From Candidatus Tenderia sp. (GTDB lineage: Bacteria; Pseudomonadota; Gammaproteobacteria; Tenderiales; Tenderiaceae), in contig JANOSY010000088.1 in NCBI GenBank assembly GCA_031416075.1, forward strand, positions 9,504-73,503: a DNA stretch of 64,000 nucleotides. Reading direction: 5' to 3'. The notes beneath the pieces are model-generated. The model had not been told where the DNA came from. It did not search any database and saw only the letters and a program-made list of their open reading frames with translations. The number at the start of each line of letters is the position of its first letter. Within the stretch, counting starts at the first letter, position 1. The translations under genes and the position numbers were made by a program. Of the stretch, positions 48,801 through 52,654 are shown piece by piece.

Positions 48801-50576
48801 TTATGCCTCGTTATCAGACTGCCACAGCACTGAAACCTTATATTCTGGATGGGATATATAGAGTTCATCATGTGTACCTACTGTAATTGAGCCATTGCCA
48901 TTAAAATAGAAGACTCTGTCGGCATTGCGAATAGACGAATAACGATGGGCGATAACAAAAGTCGTGCGACCTGTACGTAATGTATCCAGGGCAGCCACTA
49001 CCTCTTTCTCTGATTGGCTATCCAATGCTGAAGTTGCCTCATCCATAATTAAAAATGGAGCATCCATTAACATCGCCTGTGCAATTGCAATACGTTGATA
49101 CTGTCCACCTGATAGCTCAACACCGCCGGATCCTACGCGAGTATCAAGCCCATCACTCAACGCTGTAATAAATTGCCATGCGCCACTCACTTCACAGGCG
49201 TGTACCATCTGCGACTCAGTGGCATCCGGCTTCACTAATAGTAAGTTGGTGCGAATCGTATCGTGCATGATGAACGGGGTTTGCCAAATGATTGAGAATT
49301 GCTCACGTAATGAGGCGATAGTTACAGTGCGAATATCCACCCCATCAATTGTAATACGGCCTTGCTGAGGGTCATGAAAACGCATCAGCAGCCGGGCAAG
49401 TGTTGATTTTCCAGCACCGCTTGCTCCAACCAGGGCGACTGTTTCTCCGGCGCGCACTTCAAGATTGACACCTTGTAAGAGCAGCTCCCCTCCCGTGTAG
49501 GCAAAATCTACACTCTCAAAACGAATACCTCCCTCAGTCACAACTAATGGCTCTGCATCAACAATATCCTGGGTCTCAGGTTTTAGATCAAATATCGCCA
49601 AAACACGCTGCGCAGCCCCAAAATCACCTTGTAACTGCATTGGTGCTTGTGCAAACCCACGCACCGGCACCGAGAGATACCCCAAGTAGAGTAGGAAACT
49701 GACCATCGCCCCTATACCAAAACCGTGACTCTCTATCCGATCGATCCCGACGAACACTATCACGATCCCACAAAAATAGATCATGGCCGCCAGTGTGACC
49801 GTGAACCCTTGGTCCAACCAGCGCATCTTCATGCCCCAGTAACGTGCCTGTTCGTAACACTCACCATGCCTAGCCGCCATGCGTGTCTCGCCCCGGACTG
49901 AGCTTATGCCACGCAGATTGCTTAAGACCTGTTCTTCAAAGGCTAATAGTTTGCCCGCTTCATGAAAAAATCGTTGCGATGCCTTACGCTTGCGCGGGCC
50001 GAATAACCCCTGATGTATGACAAACAGTGGCACAAACATTAACGCCACCAGGGCCATATACCAATCGATCCAAAACAACATGCCACAATAAAAAAATAGG
50101 GTTAACAGGTGAGAAACAAGAAAGAAGGGGACTTCGAGTACCATGTTCTGCACACTGTCCACATCACTGCTAAGGCGGGCAAGCACGTCCCCCTTCTGTA
50201 GATGTGCAGCACCGGGCGCAGAGACATCAAACAGATGACGCAGGGCAGCTTGACGCAGCCGCCCCACAAAACGAAGCCCCAACCAGTTAGCCATCAGGGT
50301 GGAGGAGAAGTGAAATCCCTGGTTGATGACAACAACCAGTATCAACCAGAGCAGCACCGATTTAACCTGATCAAAACGCCCGGCCTGTAAGTGGTCAAAC
50401 GGTAACCCTATCAGCCAGACCATGGCGGTATTGGTCACGGTTAACCCTACAATAGTCCCTATGACCAAACTGACAAACACCACATCGGCACGTGCGTATG
50501 GCAAAAAATGGCGGAAGACTTGCCAGAATTGGGACCTTTGCACGACAGTTTCGCCCTGCTGAGGGGTATCACTCAT
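48801..50576 (-). CDS. ABC transporter, fused permease/ATP-binding type I exporter (MsbA-like)
   Basis: 591 aa with an N-terminal 6-TM domain and a C-terminal NBD (GASGAGKST, LSGGQYQRIAIAQAM, IMDEATSALD). Its start overlaps the stop of the upstream amidotransferase by 4 nt. Confidence 0.85.
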   Translation of the reverse strand: MSDTPQQGETVVQRSQFWQVFRHFLPYARADVVFVSLVIGTIVGLTVTNTAMVWLIGLPFDHLQAGRFDQVKSVLLWLILVVVINQGFHFSSTLMANWLGLRFVGRLRQAALRHLFDVSAPGAAHLQKGDVLARLSSDVDSVQNMVLEVPFFLVSHLLTLFFYCGMLFWIDWYMALVALMFVPLFVIHQGLFGPRKRKASQRFFHEAGKLLAFEEQVLSNLRGISSVRGETRMAARHGECYEQARYWGMKMRWLDQGFTVTLAAMIYFCGIVIVFVGIDRIESHGFGIGAMVSFLLYLGYLSVPVRGFAQAPMQLQGDFGAAQRVLAIFDLKPETQDIVDAEPLVVTEGGIRFESVDFAYTGGELLLQGVNLEVRAGETVALVGASGAGKSTLARLLMRFHDPQQGRITIDGVDIRTVTIASLREQFSIIWQTPFIMHDTIRTNLLLVKPDATESQMVHACEVSGAWQFITALSDGLDTRVGSGGVELSGGQYQRIAIAQAMLMDAPFLIMDEATSALDSQSEKEVVAALDTLRTGRTTFVIAHRYSSIRNADRVFYFNGNGSITVGTHDELYISHPEYKVSVLWQSDNEA

Positions 50577-52591
50577 ATGTGTGAATCAGTAAAACAGCGC
50601 GCCGTTTTGTTGATAAACAGGTCGTACAGAATCTGCACCGTCAGGATCGAAAACAGCACCCACTCCTGCCTCATTGCCCGGTAATAGGCATTGCCATCAG
50701 GGGGTGTGGGCAGGTTCACCAACTCATCCAACAGCGCAGTCACCACTTGAGGATTAAAGATGCCCGCCTGTTGAATCTTCTCTTCAGAGAGAAATTGCGA
50801 CAACCGGTCTGCATTTTTTGGCGTAAAAAACCATTCACGAATAGGGGTGTAAAAGGCACGTTTTTTATACGAAGTGGGATGTTCTGGTAACTTTGGCAAC
50901 ATTAACTTACGCAAAATATACTTCTCATCCAGGCCATTCAGCTTGAGTGCTGGTGGCACCTTTGCCGCTAACTCCACCAGTTTGTGATCCAGAAATGGGA
51001 CCCGCGCCTCCACACCGTTAGCCATGGCCAGTCGATCTGCCCGCCACAATATCCAACCTGGCAGACGGGTCTTTATCTCCAGATACAGGGACTGGTTGAG
51101 TGGATGCAACCCTTCCAGCCTGGGCTTTAAGGTGGTGATCAACTCTGCCATCTGCTGATCGTGGTCGGCGGACTGCTCCAGAAAATCATCGCTGAAGATC
51201 CCTTCACTCCCTTCACGAAGGATTTGCCAGAAGTCATACCAGACGGGATAACAACCAAATTGCGCCACCACCTTCTGCTGCTGCTGCGACTCATGTAAAC
51301 GAGCCAGCATCTGCAGATAATCAGGGGCAAAATCATTGCCAAAATCATCTAAATAGTAACGCAGCCGCTCCTCCTGCCCCCCCTTCTCATTACCCCACTG
51401 ACGGATGTAATCCTGGCGGAAGCAGTCATACCCCCCCAATATTTCATCTGCACCTTCACCGGTATACACCACTTTAAACTGATTTTTACGCACCAGCTCC
51501 GACAACATCAGCAGCGGGATATCCAGCGCCATACGTTGTGGCTGCTCGACGCTGTACATCGCCTCCACCAACACATCCAGATAATCATCACTGCGCTGGT
51601 CATCCATATACAGGTCATGCAGCTCAACACCGATGTGGTCGGCAATACTGCTAGTAATTGGATACTCGTCATTAGCACTATTGGAAAAGCGGATAGTAAA
51701 TGCCTTTACACTCTGCTCCGCAGACTGCTGCAACCAATAGGTGGTAGTGGCCGAGTCAACACCGCCGGAAAGATAGGAGCCAATAGGTACCTCGCCAATC
51801 ATGTGTGAGCGCACAGCGTCCTGCAAAACACCATCAAACTCTGCCAACCACTGCTCTTCACTGCGATCCTCATACTCACCCTCTCGGGGAAACTCCAGAT
51901 CCCAATAACAGTCAATTTGCGGCTGCTTACCTGCCACCAGTGTCATGGTATGGCCGGGGGCCAACTCAACCACCCCGGCAAAGAGCGTATGTGGCGCAAT
52001 ATTAAATTGATAGGAGAAAAAATTCCGTACCGATTGGGGATTAAAGGCGGGAGTGATCTGCCCCGATGCAAACAGCGATTTCACTTCTGAGGCACCATAC
52101 AGGGTCGTGCCGTCCCAATGGTAAACCAGCGGTTTGATACCCAACCGGTCCCTGGCCACAAATAGTTCGTTAGTTAATGAGTCATGAATAGCAAACGCAA
52201 ACATTCCCCGCAGGCGCGGCACACACTGCGCGCCATCGCGCTGGAACAGATGGAGAATCACCTCCGTATCCGATTGCGTCTGAAACAGAACGCCCTCCTG
52301 CTCCAGTTCAGCCCGCAACACCTTGTAATTATAGATTTCACCGTTATAAACAATGGCATAACGATCATCAATGCTTAACATCGGCTGGGCACCGCCACGA
52401 ATATCAACGATACTCAAACGGGTATGGCCTAACGCCACACCACCACGCACCAAATGGTTCTGTGCATCGGGTCCCCGATGTATCAGCGCATGCACCATGC
52501 GCCCTATTATTAATTCACTCGACTCACTCTGCGCCAACGGCTCAGCGGATTGATGATGGCCAGCACGATAGATGAAACAGATCCCACACAT
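50573..52591 (-). CDS. asparagine synthetase (glutamine-hydrolysing) family amidotransferase, extended (≈672 aa)
   Basis: The MCGICFIY… N-terminal Cys nucleophile of class-II glutamine amidotransferases is followed by SGGVDSA-type PP-loop synthetase motifs (YLSGGVDSATT). It is longer than housekeeping AsnB. Confidence 0.8.
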   Translation of the reverse strand: MCGICFIYRAGHHQSAEPLAQSESSELIIGRMVHALIHRGPDAQNHLVRGGVALGHTRLSIVDIRGGAQPMLSIDDRYAIVYNGEIYNYKVLRAELEQEGVLFQTQSDTEVILHLFQRDGAQCVPRLRGMFAFAIHDSLTNELFVARDRLGIKPLVYHWDGTTLYGASEVKSLFASGQITPAFNPQSVRNFFSYQFNIAPHTLFAGVVELAPGHTMTLVAGKQPQIDCYWDLEFPREGEYEDRSEEQWLAEFDGVLQDAVRSHMIGEVPIGSYLSGGVDSATTTYWLQQSAEQSVKAFTIRFSNSANDEYPITSSIADHIGVELHDLYMDDQRSDDYLDVLVEAMYSVEQPQRMALDIPLLMLSELVRKNQFKVVYTGEGADEILGGYDCFRQDYIRQWGNEKGGQEERLRYYLDDFGNDFAPDYLQMLARLHESQQQQKVVAQFGCYPVWYDFWQILREGSEGIFSDDFLEQSADHDQQMAELITTLKPRLEGLHPLNQSLYLEIKTRLPGWILWRADRLAMANGVEARVPFLDHKLVELAAKVPPALKLNGLDEKYILRKLMLPKLPEHPTSYKKRAFYTPIREWFFTPKNADRLSQFLSEEKIQQAGIFNPQVVTALLDELVNLPTPPDGNAYYRAMRQEWVLFSILTVQILYDLFINKTARCFTDSHI

Positions 52592-52654
52592 CACAGACTC
52601 TCACGTAAACAATCCCTGCACACAACGCCGGTCAGCAACAACCGGAACCCGCCT

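What the first reader, a model, noticed from the sequence alone, without database searches (positions are those of the whole stretch)
48801..52594. Extended asparagine-synthetase-family amidotransferase translationally coupled to an MsbA-type ABC exporter, convergent on the Gly/Met peptide genes
The 672-aa AsnB-like protein (Cys-2 glutaminase nucleophile plus PP-loop SGGVDS) is about 120 aa longer than biosynthetic AsnB. Its stop overlaps the ATG of a 591-aa fused TMD-NBD exporter (ATGA). Coupled AsnB-paralog/ABC-exporter pairs occur in lasso-peptide (C/D proteins) and exosortase/EPS loci, where the amidotransferase amidates or cyclises a substrate that is then exported. No B-type protease or obvious glycosyltransferases are present, so the substrate is open. 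The adjacent Met/Gly peptides are the only small-peptide candidates.
Basis: partly seen in the sequence, partly recalled or inferred. Interest (0 to 1): 0.65.

Follow-up and report, generated by a model that had tools for sequence, protein, structure and literature searches.

The report
Gly/Met micropeptides with dedicated ABC exporter
The asparagine-synthetase-like gene and the ABC exporter are real and overlap, but the widely conserved unit is the exporter plus tiny convergent genes for peptides made almost only of glycine and methionine, an apparently undescribed family, and the amidotransferase is a recent add-on in one small clade.

Summary
A 672-aa AsnB-family glutamine amidotransferase has its stop overlapping the start (ATGA) of a 591-aa TMD-NBD ABC exporter. 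Both lie downstream of the pnp terminator and converge on two micro-genes. These encode a 40-aa and a 22-aa peptide made of Gly and Met, with one Asn and one Arg in the second.

In 11 loci carrying exporter orthologs (50-100% identity), a free-standing Gly/Met micro-ORF was present every time. It was adjacent and convergent in 10 loci and about 5 kb away in one. None was found in 80 loci (726 kb) of unrelated ABC exporters. The micro-genes share a strong Shine-Dalgarno site, a conserved structured 3'UTR, mostly synonymous substitutions and near-total avoidance of GGG codons, so they are translated homologous genes.

The AsnB gene is present only in the window's own clade: four genomic loci plus further contigs. 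Its nearest relatives (72-73% identity) are stand-alone genes in an unrelated context, and exporter orthologs at 56-72% identity lack it. It fails the lasso-cyclase and exosortase-amidotransferase models. The peptides have no Asp or Glu, so the only carboxylate available is the C-terminal Met. C-terminal amidation before export is the best guess, but a relocated ordinary AsnB is a serious rival.

The parts
50573..52591 (-). AsnB-family glutamine-dependent amidotransferase, 672 aa. It has an Ntn Cys-2 glutaminase domain and a PP-loop synthetase domain.
   Evidence: Pfam GATase_7 and Asn_synthase. TIGR01536 scores 436, above its cutoff of 267. All specific subfamily models score below their cutoffs.
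48801..50576 (-). ABCB-type half-transporter (TMD-NBD exporter), 591 aa. Its start ATG overlaps the AsnB stop (ATGA).
   Evidence: The MsbA model scores 355 against a cutoff of 602. There is no C39 peptidase domain.
48005..48127 (+). Gly/Met micropeptide gene 1, 40 aa (34 Gly and 6 Met). The AAGGAG Shine-Dalgarno site lies at 47993-47998.
   Evidence: The ortholog in L214 is 43 aa. Substitutions are mostly at the third codon position.
48128..48236 (+). Conserved structured 3'UTR of gene 1: two hairpins followed by a GC-rich intrinsic terminator.
   Evidence: Seven of 26 pairs show compensatory changes.
48540..48608 (+). Gly/Met micropeptide gene 2, 22 aa (MGGMNGGRGGMGGGGGGGGGGM). The AAGGAG Shine-Dalgarno site lies at 48528-48533.
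   Evidence: Orthologs are present in L214 and L001. Window versus L214 shows 0/0/5 differences by codon position.
48609..48712 (+). Conserved structured 3'UTR of gene 2. Its terminator hairpin is flanked by an A-run and a T-run, so it probably also terminates the convergent AsnB-ABC operon.
   Evidence: Bidirectionality is inferred from the sequence.
47942..47962 (.). Perfect palindrome ATATTTGAA-TGG-TTCAAATAT upstream of gene 1, a candidate operator inside a 30% GC promoter region (47446-47990).
   Evidence: Related imperfect palindromes lie upstream of the other GM genes. No function was tested.
52663..52686 (-). Intrinsic terminator of pnp (GGGGCC-ATT-GGCCCC then T7). It separates the housekeeping nusA-infB-rbfA-truB-rpsO-pnp operon from the AsnB-ABC operon.

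Best explanation
The locus is a small-peptide export module. One or two strongly expressed micro-genes encode 21-43-aa peptides built from Gly and Met. These peptides have no leader, no signal peptide and no acidic residue. A dedicated ABCB-type half-transporter encoded convergently next to them moves the peptides across the inner membrane.

That exporter-peptide pairing is the ancestral, widely conserved unit. In the window's clade several changes appear together:
- an AsnB-family glutamine amidotransferase was inserted between the pnp terminator and the exporter, translationally coupled to it;
- the neighbouring QseB/PmrA-like response regulator was lost;
- in three of the four loci the peptide gene is present in two copies;
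- the peptides lost the Arg-rich C-terminal tail seen elsewhere and now end in ...GGGGM or ...GMGM.

The most likely role of the enzyme is to adenylate the only carboxylate these peptides have, the C-terminal Met, and convert it to a carboxamide with glutamine-derived ammonia before export.

Shown here: the genes, the overlap, the co-occurrence, and that the micro-ORFs are coding and homologous. Inferred: export of the peptides by the ABC protein, amidation, and any extracytoplasmic role. Met thioethers acting as soft-metal ligands or oxidant sinks is a speculation.
For: Exporter-peptide link:
- All 11 loci with an exporter ortholog contain a free-standing GM micro-ORF. These are the window, L214, L001, L003, L209, L006, L210, L211, L008 and L007, plus the contig fragment L004.
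- The micro-ORF is convergent and within about 200 nt of the exporter stop in 10 loci and about 5 kb away in L007.
- None was found in 80 control loci (726 kb) of other ABC exporters.
- None was found in the three stand-alone AsnB loci L005, L212 and L213.

The micro-ORFs are real homologous genes:
- Every SD-preceded micro-ORF (14 of them) has an AGGAG-type Shine-Dalgarno site a few nt before the ATG.
- The 3'UTR hairpin and terminator are shared across loci with and without AsnB.
- Substitutions are mostly at third codon positions: 0/0/5, 2/2/16 and 1/2/11 by codon position in three ortholog pairs.
- Gly codon counts are GGT 137, GGC 151, GGA 24 and GGG 1.

AsnB link:
- The 4-nt overlap (ATGA or GTGA) is kept in all four coupled genomic loci.
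- Further coupled pairs sit on shared contigs.
- None of the 80 control ABC loci has an AsnB-like gene.
- The glutaminase and PP-loop motifs are intact.
- All seven peptides of the coupled clade end in Met and lack Asp or Glu. All five peptides from AsnB-less adjacent loci end in Arg or Arg-rich tails and four of those five loci carry a response regulator next door.
- There is precedent. The AS-like enzymes TsrC, ScdTA, AsnO and PesC act on C-terminal carboxylates of peptides (PMC13060819).
Against: - AsnB homologs at 72-73% identity (L212, L213) and 64% identity (L005) are stand-alone genes in a conserved YgaP-like / hybrid kinase / AsnB / cold-shock / mutM context. They have no exporter and no GM ORF nearby.
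- Only 6 positions separate the coupled clade from the stand-alone clade. Only 2 of these depart from the family consensus.
- The rate acceleration is mild. Identity to outgroup P0014 is 64-68% for the coupled clade against 68.5-70.6% for the stand-alone clade.
- The protein passes NCBI's generic asparagine synthase model.
- The link between gaining AsnB and losing the Arg tail rests on one evolutionary event. L007 peptides also end in Met without an AsnB gene within 8 kb.
- Export was not demonstrated.
- No outer-membrane or periplasmic adaptor partner was seen among the annotated neighbours.
Confidence: 0.5

Rival explanations
1. The exporter-peptide module is real, but the AsnB gene is an ordinary lineage-typical asparagine synthetase, or an amidotransferase with an unrelated substrate. 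It was relocated next to the exporter and is merely co-transcribed, without acting on the peptides.
For: - It scores above the cutoff for TIGR01536.
- The sister clade at 72-75% identity includes two stand-alone genes in another conserved context (L212, L213).
- Only 6 sites are fixed between the clades.
- Exporter orthologs at 56-72% identity work with GM peptides and no adjacent AsnB gene.
- AsnB and the ABC protein diverge at similar rates. AsnB is 78-86% and ABC 77-83% identical to the window copies, against 92% for PNPase.
Against: - The 4-nt stop/start overlap is kept across four diverged genomes.
- AsnB was gained at the same node as the loss of the Arg tail, the loss of the regulator and the appearance of a second peptide gene.
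- AsnB-ABC adjacency is absent from 80 control loci.
Confidence: 0.33
2. The GM peptides are microcin-like antibacterial peptides. The ABC protein is their exporter and immunity pump, as McjD is for microcin J25, and AsnB is a tailoring enzyme.
For: The arrangement is a small peptide plus a dedicated stand-alone ABCB exporter without a peptidase domain. That microcins are often Gly-rich is from general knowledge.
Against: - The module sits at a fixed core-chromosome position next to pnp in five diverged genomes (PNPase identity to the window 82-92%). This looks like vertical inheritance, not a mobile island.
- No immunity gene, membrane-fusion protein or TolC-type gene was seen among the annotated neighbours.
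- The peptides have no leader and show repeat-length drift rather than a defined pharmacophore.
- In relatives they sit with stress-type neighbours: degP, hsp20, groESL and peroxidases.
Confidence: 0.08
3. The micro-ORFs are not protein-coding. The G-rich repeats and structured downstream region form a small RNA or a repeat element.
For: - The 3'UTR structure is better conserved than the ORF length.
- The other reading frames of the repeat are also open.
- No protein-family hit was found.
Against: - Every SD-preceded micro-ORF (14) has an AGGAG-type Shine-Dalgarno site a few nt before an in-frame ATG and a stop directly after the repeat.
- All length changes are in whole codons.
- Substitutions concentrate at third positions and are synonymous.
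- GGG accounts for 1 of 313 Gly codons.
- Rfam gave no hit.
- A dual function, peptide plus a 3'UTR-derived sRNA, is not excluded.
Confidence: 0.05
4. This is either a lasso-type cyclase/exporter pair making a macrolactam, or an exosortase/EPS-type amidotransferase whose glycan or lipid product is exported.
For: The protein is homologous to the AsnB family and is paired with an ABCB exporter. There is a near full-length alignment to TIGR03108 (residues 2-624).
Against: - NF033535 scores 200 against a cutoff of 525, and TIGR03108 scores 429 against 817.
- The glutaminase nucleophile is intact.
- The peptides have no Asp or Glu with which to form an isopeptide.
- No B protein, RRE, glycosyltransferase, exosortase or PEP-CTERM gene was found among the genes annotated within the 64-kb window.
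- Head-to-tail cyclisation through the C-terminal carboxylate is chemically conceivable but has no support.
Confidence: 0.04

Closest known systems
AS-like enzymes that modify peptide C-termini: TsrC (thiostrepton), ScdTA, AsnO (N-acetylglutaminylglutamine amide) and PesC (nitrilobacillins). Source: PMC13060819.
   Same: These are asparagine-synthetase-fold enzymes with an intact glutaminase domain. They adenylate a peptide's C-terminal carboxylate and add glutamine-derived nitrogen. They are encoded next to a ribosomal peptide and a transporter.
   Different: No sequence membership was shown here. The NAGGN model TIGR03104 scores 352 against a cutoff of 570. The peptides here have no leader and carry no other modifications. 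The enzyme is nearly identical at conserved sites to stand-alone paralogs or orthologs, and its activity is untested.
Lasso-peptide C/D pair (McjC cyclase plus McjD exporter)
   Same: An AsnB homolog sits next to a stand-alone ABCB half-transporter that has no peptidase domain, with a small peptide gene nearby.
   Different: The cyclase model is failed (200 against 525). The glutaminase Cys is retained. No B protease or RRE is present. The peptides lack the Asp or Glu needed for the isopeptide ring.
XrtA/PEP-CTERM (exosortase) system amidotransferase, TIGR03108
   Same: It has the long (about 630-670 aa) AsnB-like architecture and aligns over nearly its full length.
   Different: The score is about half the cutoff (429 against 817). 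No exosortase or EPS genes are nearby. The flanks are the housekeeping pnp operon on one side and, beyond the two peptide genes, Dabb, M23 and xseA on the other.
GroEL C-terminal (GGM)4M tail (PMC12571646)
   Same: It has the same two-letter Gly/Met repeat chemistry and ends in Met. In L007 the exporter ortholog lies directly after groES-groEL.
   Different: The GroEL tail is part of a 550-aa cytoplasmic chaperonin. Here the repeat is the whole gene product and is paired with an exporter.
MsbA and ABCB multidrug or peptide exporters (Sav1866, TmrAB/TAP, McjD)
   Same: The fused TMD-NBD type IV exporter fold. The best PDB sequence matches are ABCB1, Sav1866 and MsbA.
   Different: It scores below the MsbA equivalog cutoffs (355 against 602, and 291 against 867). 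Its conserved genomic partner is a peptide gene, not lipid A genes.
Met-rich Cu(I)/Ag(I)-binding periplasmic segments (CopA/PcoA, CueO insert, CusF, PcoE/SilE). From general knowledge, not tested.
   Same: Several Met thioethers are spaced by flexible residues. A secreted protein with GM stretches is encoded next to the exporter in L006 and L210.
   Different: No His or Asp partners and no copper-resistance genes are nearby. The adjacent regulator is QseB/PmrA-like and scores below the heavy-metal regulator cutoff.

Membership tests
Asparagine synthetase B family (Ntn glutamine amidotransferase plus PP-loop synthetase; PF13537/PF00733; TIGR01536) | N-terminal Cys nucleophile directly after the initiator Met | tested here: met
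   MCGICF at the ATG at 52591
Asparagine synthetase B family | Glutaminase-site residues equivalent to E. coli R49, N74-G75-E76 and D98 | tested here: met
   HTRLSIVD, NGEIYN and SDTEV align with 1ct9
Asparagine synthetase B family | PP-loop SGGxDS and the GEGADE motif of the synthetase site | tested here: met
   SGGVDS and TGEGADE are present
Asparagine synthetase B family | Score above the curated cutoff of TIGR01536 | tested here: met
   436.3 against 267.1
Asparagine synthetase B family | Catalyses Asp to Asn | not testable with these tools
   Needs an enzyme assay or complementation of an asnA asnB auxotroph
E. coli-type AsnB (NF006949) | Score above the curated cutoff | tested here: not met
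   286.1 against 499, aligned in three separate stretches
Lasso peptide isopeptide-forming cyclase (NF033535) | Score above the curated cutoff | tested here: not met
   200.1 against 525
Lasso peptide system | Precursor with Asp or Glu at about position 7-9, plus a B-type leader peptidase or RRE nearby | tested here: not met
   The peptides contain no Asp or Glu. The neighbours are pnp, Dabb, M23 and xseA
XrtA/PEP-CTERM system amidotransferase (TIGR03108) | Score above the curated cutoff, and exosortase or EPS genes in the neighbourhood | tested here: not met
   429.1 against 816.9. No such genes were found among the ORFs annotated in the window
N-acetylglutaminylglutamine amidotransferase (TIGR03104) | Score above the curated cutoff | tested here: not met
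   351.9 against 570.1
MsbA lipid A flippase (TIGR02203 / NF008381) | Score above the curated cutoff | tested here: not met
   354.9 against 602, and 290.6 against 867
ABCB-type (type IV) half-transporter exporter | N-terminal six-helix ABC_membrane domain fused to a C-terminal NBD with Walker A, signature and Walker B motifs | tested here: met
   PF00664 covers residues 38-305 and PF00005 covers 367-516. GASGAGKS, LSGGQ and LIMDEA are present
Peptidase-containing bacteriocin ABC exporters (PCAT; TIGR01193, TIGR03796) | N-terminal C39 peptidase domain and a score above the cutoff | tested here: not met
   No C39 domain. 210 against 524, and 230 against 853
Peptide C-terminus-modifying AS-like enzymes (TsrC, ScdTA, PesC) | Encoded next to a ribosomal peptide whose C-terminal carboxylate is the substrate | tested here: inconclusive
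   Adjacency and the fact that the C-terminus is the only carboxylate are met. Close stand-alone homologs and the lack of clade-specific changes argue neither way. No family model was available
Gly/Met micropeptide plus exporter module (defined here) | A free-standing ORF of 21-52 aa, at least 70% Gly plus Met, preceded by a Shine-Dalgarno site, with a conserved 3'UTR hairpin and terminator, next to an ortholog of this ABC exporter | tested here: met
   Found in 11 of 11 ortholog loci against 0 of 80 control loci

The most novel reading that the evidence does not exclude
The Gly/Met-only micro-genes are a previously undescribed class of abundant exported two-letter micropeptides with their own ABC exporter. 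They act outside the cytoplasm, for example as flexible poly-thioether ligands for Cu(I)/Ag(I) or as sacrificial methionine sinks for oxidants. In this clade an asparagine-synthetase paralog has been recruited to cap their C-terminus as an amide. This would be a leaderless, minimal RiPP-like pathway of one enzyme and one pump.
Probability: 0.25. Interest if true: 0.8.

Novelty: new variant of a known kind. Interest (0 to 1): 0.6.

Why it matters
The genes are invisible to the family databases checked here. They gave no Pfam or NCBIfam hit, and a profile search found nothing. Yet they are conserved, carry features typical of strongly expressed genes (strong Shine-Dalgarno sites, GGT/GGC-biased Gly codons, strong terminators) and have a dedicated transporter.

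A peptide made of only two amino acids with its own pump is an unusually clean system. It can be used to ask what an ABCB exporter recognises and what a Gly/Met repeat does on its own. The same motif occurs in the GroEL tail and in many secreted proteins.

The clade-specific recruitment of an AsnB homolog, together with the loss of the Arg tail, offers a natural experiment. It can show how a primary-metabolism enzyme might become a peptide-tailoring enzyme, or show that operon overlap alone is weak evidence of shared function.

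Tried and rejected
It returned almost only GM stretches inside large proteins: planctomycete secreted proteins, GroEL tails, Ffh, multicopper oxidases and Spy-like proteins. The motif alone is therefore unspecific, and the scan said nothing about micro-ORFs.
2. The metagenome scan with the exporter alignment used generic ABC motifs. It returned only exporters at 28-45% identity. I kept these as a negative control.
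3. A profile search with 12 GM peptides scored nothing, probably because of the composition filter.
4. Pfam and NCBIfam gave no hit for the peptides or for the GM-stretch secreted protein.
5. Rfam gave no credible hit for the peptide region.
6. tblastn of the exporter against plasmids found no match.
7. Three literature searches found no description of free-standing GM peptides, only GroEL-tail papers.
8. I rejected the lasso and exosortase readings on HMM cutoffs, peptide composition and neighbourhood.
9. I rejected a link to the adjacent M23 (Gly-Gly endopeptidase family) and Dabb genes. That flank is shared only with L214 and differs in L001 and L003.
10. I considered that P0014 and P0049, both labelled Kaarinaea lacus, showed two paralogs in one genome. 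I dropped this because that species is a cyanobacterium, so the contigs may come from different contaminants.

Full report
**1. The observation**

The window carries, on the minus strand, an ORF at 50573..52594.
- Its functional start is the ATG at 52591. The sequence there reads GTG ATG TGT GGG, which gives MCGICF... and 672 aa.
- It has the class-II (Ntn) glutaminase nucleophile at position 2.
- The motifs HTRLSIVD, NGEIYN and SDTEV align with R49, N74-G75-E76 and D98 of E. coli AsnB.
- It has the PP-loop SGGVDS.
- Pfam gives GATase_7/GATase_6 plus Asn_synthase.

The stop codon overlaps the ATG of a 591-aa protein at 48801..50576 (...ACATATGAGTGAT). That protein has an ABC_membrane domain followed by an ABC_tran domain and no peptidase domain.

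Upstream lies the housekeeping nusA-infB-rbfA-truB-rpsO-pnp operon (rbfA and rpsO placed by synteny with L001 and L003), which ends in a clean intrinsic terminator.

Downstream, on the opposite strand and convergent, are two micro-ORFs:
- 48005..48127: MGGGGGMGGGGMGGGGGGGMGGGGGGGMGGGGGGGGGGGM
- 48540..48608: MGGMNGGRGGMGGGGGGGGGGM

Each has an AAGGAG Shine-Dalgarno site six nt before the ATG and its own terminator.

**2. What the AsnB-like protein is, by family models**

| Model | Score | Cutoff |
|---|---|---|
| TIGR01536, generic asparagine synthase | 436 | 267 |
| TIGR03108, XrtA/PEP-CTERM amidotransferase | 429 | 817 |
| TIGR03104, NAGGN amidotransferase | 352 | 570 |
| NF006949, E. coli-type AsnB | 286 | 499 |
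| NF033535, lasso cyclase | 200 | 525 |

The protein exceeds only the generic model and fails every specific one.

Its best matches to solved structures are the hydroxyamidotransferase 7ylz (named TsnB9 from memory) and E. coli AsnB 1ct9, both near E = 1e-50. The 'extra 120 aa' is a family trait, since nearly all full-length homologs among the 120 listed hits are 650-681 aa.

The exporter is a generic ABCB half-transporter. It scores below the MsbA cutoffs, and its best PDB matches are ABCB1, Sav1866 and MsbA.

**3. Comparative genomics of the pair**

Relatives with AsnB at 78-86% identity keep pnp, then AsnB, then ABC, with the same 4-nt overlap. These are L214 (GCA_947085765.1), L001 (GCA_043779675.1) and L003 (GCA_043755075.1). 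The overlap reads ATGA or GTGA.

Further coupled pairs share contigs: P0004 with P0122, P0006 with P0129, P0243 with P0124, and P0241 with P0127.

All coupled loci carry convergent Gly/Met micro-ORFs. This holds although the far flank differs: Dabb/M23/xseA in the window and L214, PG-binding/PGM in L001, and GspH/aminotransferase in L003.

**4. The exporter, not the amidotransferase, is the constant partner of the peptides**

| Locus | Exporter identity to window | Gene before the exporter | Convergent peptide |
|---|---|---|---|
| L209 | 72% | pnp, with no AsnB | MGGMGGMGGGGMGGMGGMGGMGGGRMGGGRGGRGR |
| L006 | 65% | — | MGGMGGRGGGGMGGGGRGGMGGGGMGGGRGRR |
| L210 | 64% | — | MGGMGGRGGGGMGGGGRGGGMGGGMGGR |
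| L211 | 62% | — | MGGMGGMGGGGMGGGGNGGGGGMGGR |
| L008 | 56% | — | MGGMGGMGGRGGMGGGMGGMGGRGGRMGGRGR |

None of these loci has an AsnB gene. In four of the five (not L211) a QseB/PmrA-like response regulator lies next to the peptide gene.

L007 (50% identity) has the exporter directly after groES-groEL. Two GM genes of 52 and 32 aa lie about 5 kb away, beside degP and hsp20.

As a control, 80 loci (726 kb) holding other ABC exporters contain no free-standing GM micro-ORF and no AsnB-like gene. The three stand-alone AsnB loci also have no GM micro-ORF.

**5. The micro-ORFs are genuine, homologous, translated genes**

- All 14 SD-preceded micro-ORFs have an AGGAG-type Shine-Dalgarno site a few nt upstream of the ATG.
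- Their 3'UTRs share two hairpins and a GC-rich terminator, with 7 of 26 pairs showing compensatory changes.
- The (T/G)ATGGC-N5-7-GCCAT hairpin and terminator recur in the loci without AsnB.
- Between orthologs, differences fall mainly on third codon positions: 0/0/5, 2/2/16 and 1/2/11. Length changes are whole codons.
- Of 313 Gly codons, GGT accounts for 137, GGC 151, GGA 24 and GGG 1.
- Pfam, NCBIfam, Rfam and a profile search gave no hit.
- Three literature searches found only GroEL-tail papers.

**6. How tightly the AsnB gene belongs to the module**

In a neighbour-joining tree the coupled AsnB proteins (window, P0001-P0006) form one clade. It is sister to P0007-P0013 at 71-75% identity.

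Two members of that sister clade (L212, L213) and the next outgroup (L005, 64% identity) are stand-alone genes. They sit in a conserved YgaP-like / hybrid histidine kinase / AsnB / cold-shock protein / mutM context, without an exporter or GM ORFs.

Evidence that the enzyme has not changed much:
- Only six alignment positions are fixed differently between the two clades, and only two depart from the wider family consensus.
- Acceleration is mild. Identity to P0014 is 64-68% for the coupled clade against 68.5-70.6% for the stand-alone clade.

There is thus no sequence signature of a new substrate.

Evidence that the gene is nonetheless integrated into the module:
- The overlap with the exporter is preserved over the whole clade.
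- Its gain coincides with loss of the response regulator, the appearance of a second peptide gene in three of four loci, and replacement of the Arg-rich peptide tail by a C-terminal Met. L003 and L209 share the same far flank, which makes this comparison direct.

This is a single evolutionary event, and L007 peptides also end in Met without a nearby AsnB gene.

**7. Mechanism**

The best-supported part, at about 0.8, is that the ABC exporter and the GM peptides form one functional unit. Most simply, the leaderless peptides are its cargo across the inner membrane. No membrane-fusion or outer-membrane partner was seen among the annotated neighbours, so the periplasm is the inferred destination.

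For the AsnB protein, the peptides offer only one carboxylate, the C-terminal Met. With an intact glutaminase domain, the chemistry expected from the family is adenylation of that carboxylate and amidation. TsrC, ScdTA, AsnO and PesC do this with other peptides (PMC13060819). I put this at roughly 0.35-0.4.

The reading in which AsnB is an ordinary, relocated asparagine synthetase that is only co-transcribed is about 0.33.

What the peptides do outside the cytoplasm is unknown. Three hints suggest an envelope-stress, oxidant or soft-metal role:
- a secreted 301-336-aa protein with Cys-bracketed GM stretches next to the exporter in L006 and L210;
- stress-type neighbours in L007 and L008;
- the known affinity of Met thioethers for Cu(I)/Ag(I) and for oxidants, which is general knowledge.

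None of this is tested.

**8. Comparison with known systems and verdict**

The locus works like a minimal peptide-plus-exporter system, with a possible tailoring amidotransferase. It is not a member of the lasso, exosortase, NAGGN, MsbA or PCAT families, because each failed a defining test.

The Gly/Met-only micropeptide genes and their fixed exporter partner appear undescribed in the libraries and literature I could search.

I rate the finding as a new variant of a known kind, with interest 0.6.

Noticed in passing
window 48128-48236 and 48609-48712; also L001, L003, L214 and L209/L006/L210/L211: The 3'UTRs of the GM genes form a conserved multi-stem structure: CCCTCTC..GAGAGG, ATGGC-N5-7-GCCAT, then a terminator. 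It shows compensatory changes and is better conserved than the ORF length. It could be a stabiliser or a 3'UTR-derived sRNA. The pep2 terminator has an A-run and a T-run, so it may be bidirectional.
   Followed up: partly
window 47942-47962: A perfect palindrome ATATTTGAA-TGG-TTCAAATAT lies about 45 nt upstream of the pep1 ATG, inside a 30% GC region (47446-47990) with no ORF of 40 aa or more. Weaker palindromes lie upstream of the other GM genes. It is a candidate operator.
   Followed up: partly
L006 6882-7787(-) and L210 5865-6875(-): A 301-336-aa protein with no family hit; the L210 copy has a predicted signal peptide. It carries three Gly/Met stretches bracketed by Cys residues and ends in a GM repeat. 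It is encoded divergently from the exporter ortholog.
   Followed up: partly
L007 5858-9797 and 14211-15164: The exporter ortholog (50% identity) sits directly downstream of groES-groEL, and the GroEL tail is itself GGMGGMGGMGGMM. Two GM genes lie beside degP and hsp20. One is a Gly/Gln/Met variant, MGQGQGMGQGQGM...
   Followed up: no
L003 11970-12095(-): This 41-aa peptide has a Pro/Ala/Ile/Val-rich N-terminal half (MPVVIAPPIIPAPPAPAPGG...) fused to a GM C-terminal half. The N-terminal part resembles what the opposite strand of a GGN/ATG repeat encodes, which suggests an internal inversion.
   Followed up: no
window 46088-47445: An M23 metallopeptidase (the family that includes Gly-Gly endopeptidases) and a Dabb-domain lipoprotein lie next to the poly-Gly peptide genes. 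The same flank is present in L214 but not in L001 or L003, so the adjacency is probably coincidental.
   Followed up: partly
window 32777-44711: Two giant ORFs of 2098 and 1872 aa carry only weak OmpA, CarboxypepD_reg, fn3 and purple-acid-phosphatase-N hits. Their GC content is about 0.59-0.60, against 0.48-0.52 around the finding.
   Followed up: no
window 15069-15730, 8234-8400 and 61541-61614: There is a cluster of five tRNA genes, plus a pair and a single tRNA. The surrounding genes are housekeeping (tig-clpP-clpX-lon-ppiD, an opp-type importer, fabI), which confirms a core-chromosome setting.
   Followed up: no
L005 (GCA_975852575.1): The contig is labelled Kaarinaea lacus, a nostocalean cyanobacterium. 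Its gene content matches the gammaproteobacterial stand-alone AsnB loci L212 and L213, so it is probably a contaminant contig in a non-axenic culture assembly.
   Followed up: partly
L009-L128 (genome pattern scan): MGGGG-x-MGGGG stretches are common inside large secreted proteins of Planctomycetota. They also occur in Ffh tails, GroEL tails, multicopper oxidases, and directly after the signal peptide of Spy/CpxP-like proteins. The GM motif therefore has a wider use, often outside the cytoplasm.
   Followed up: partly
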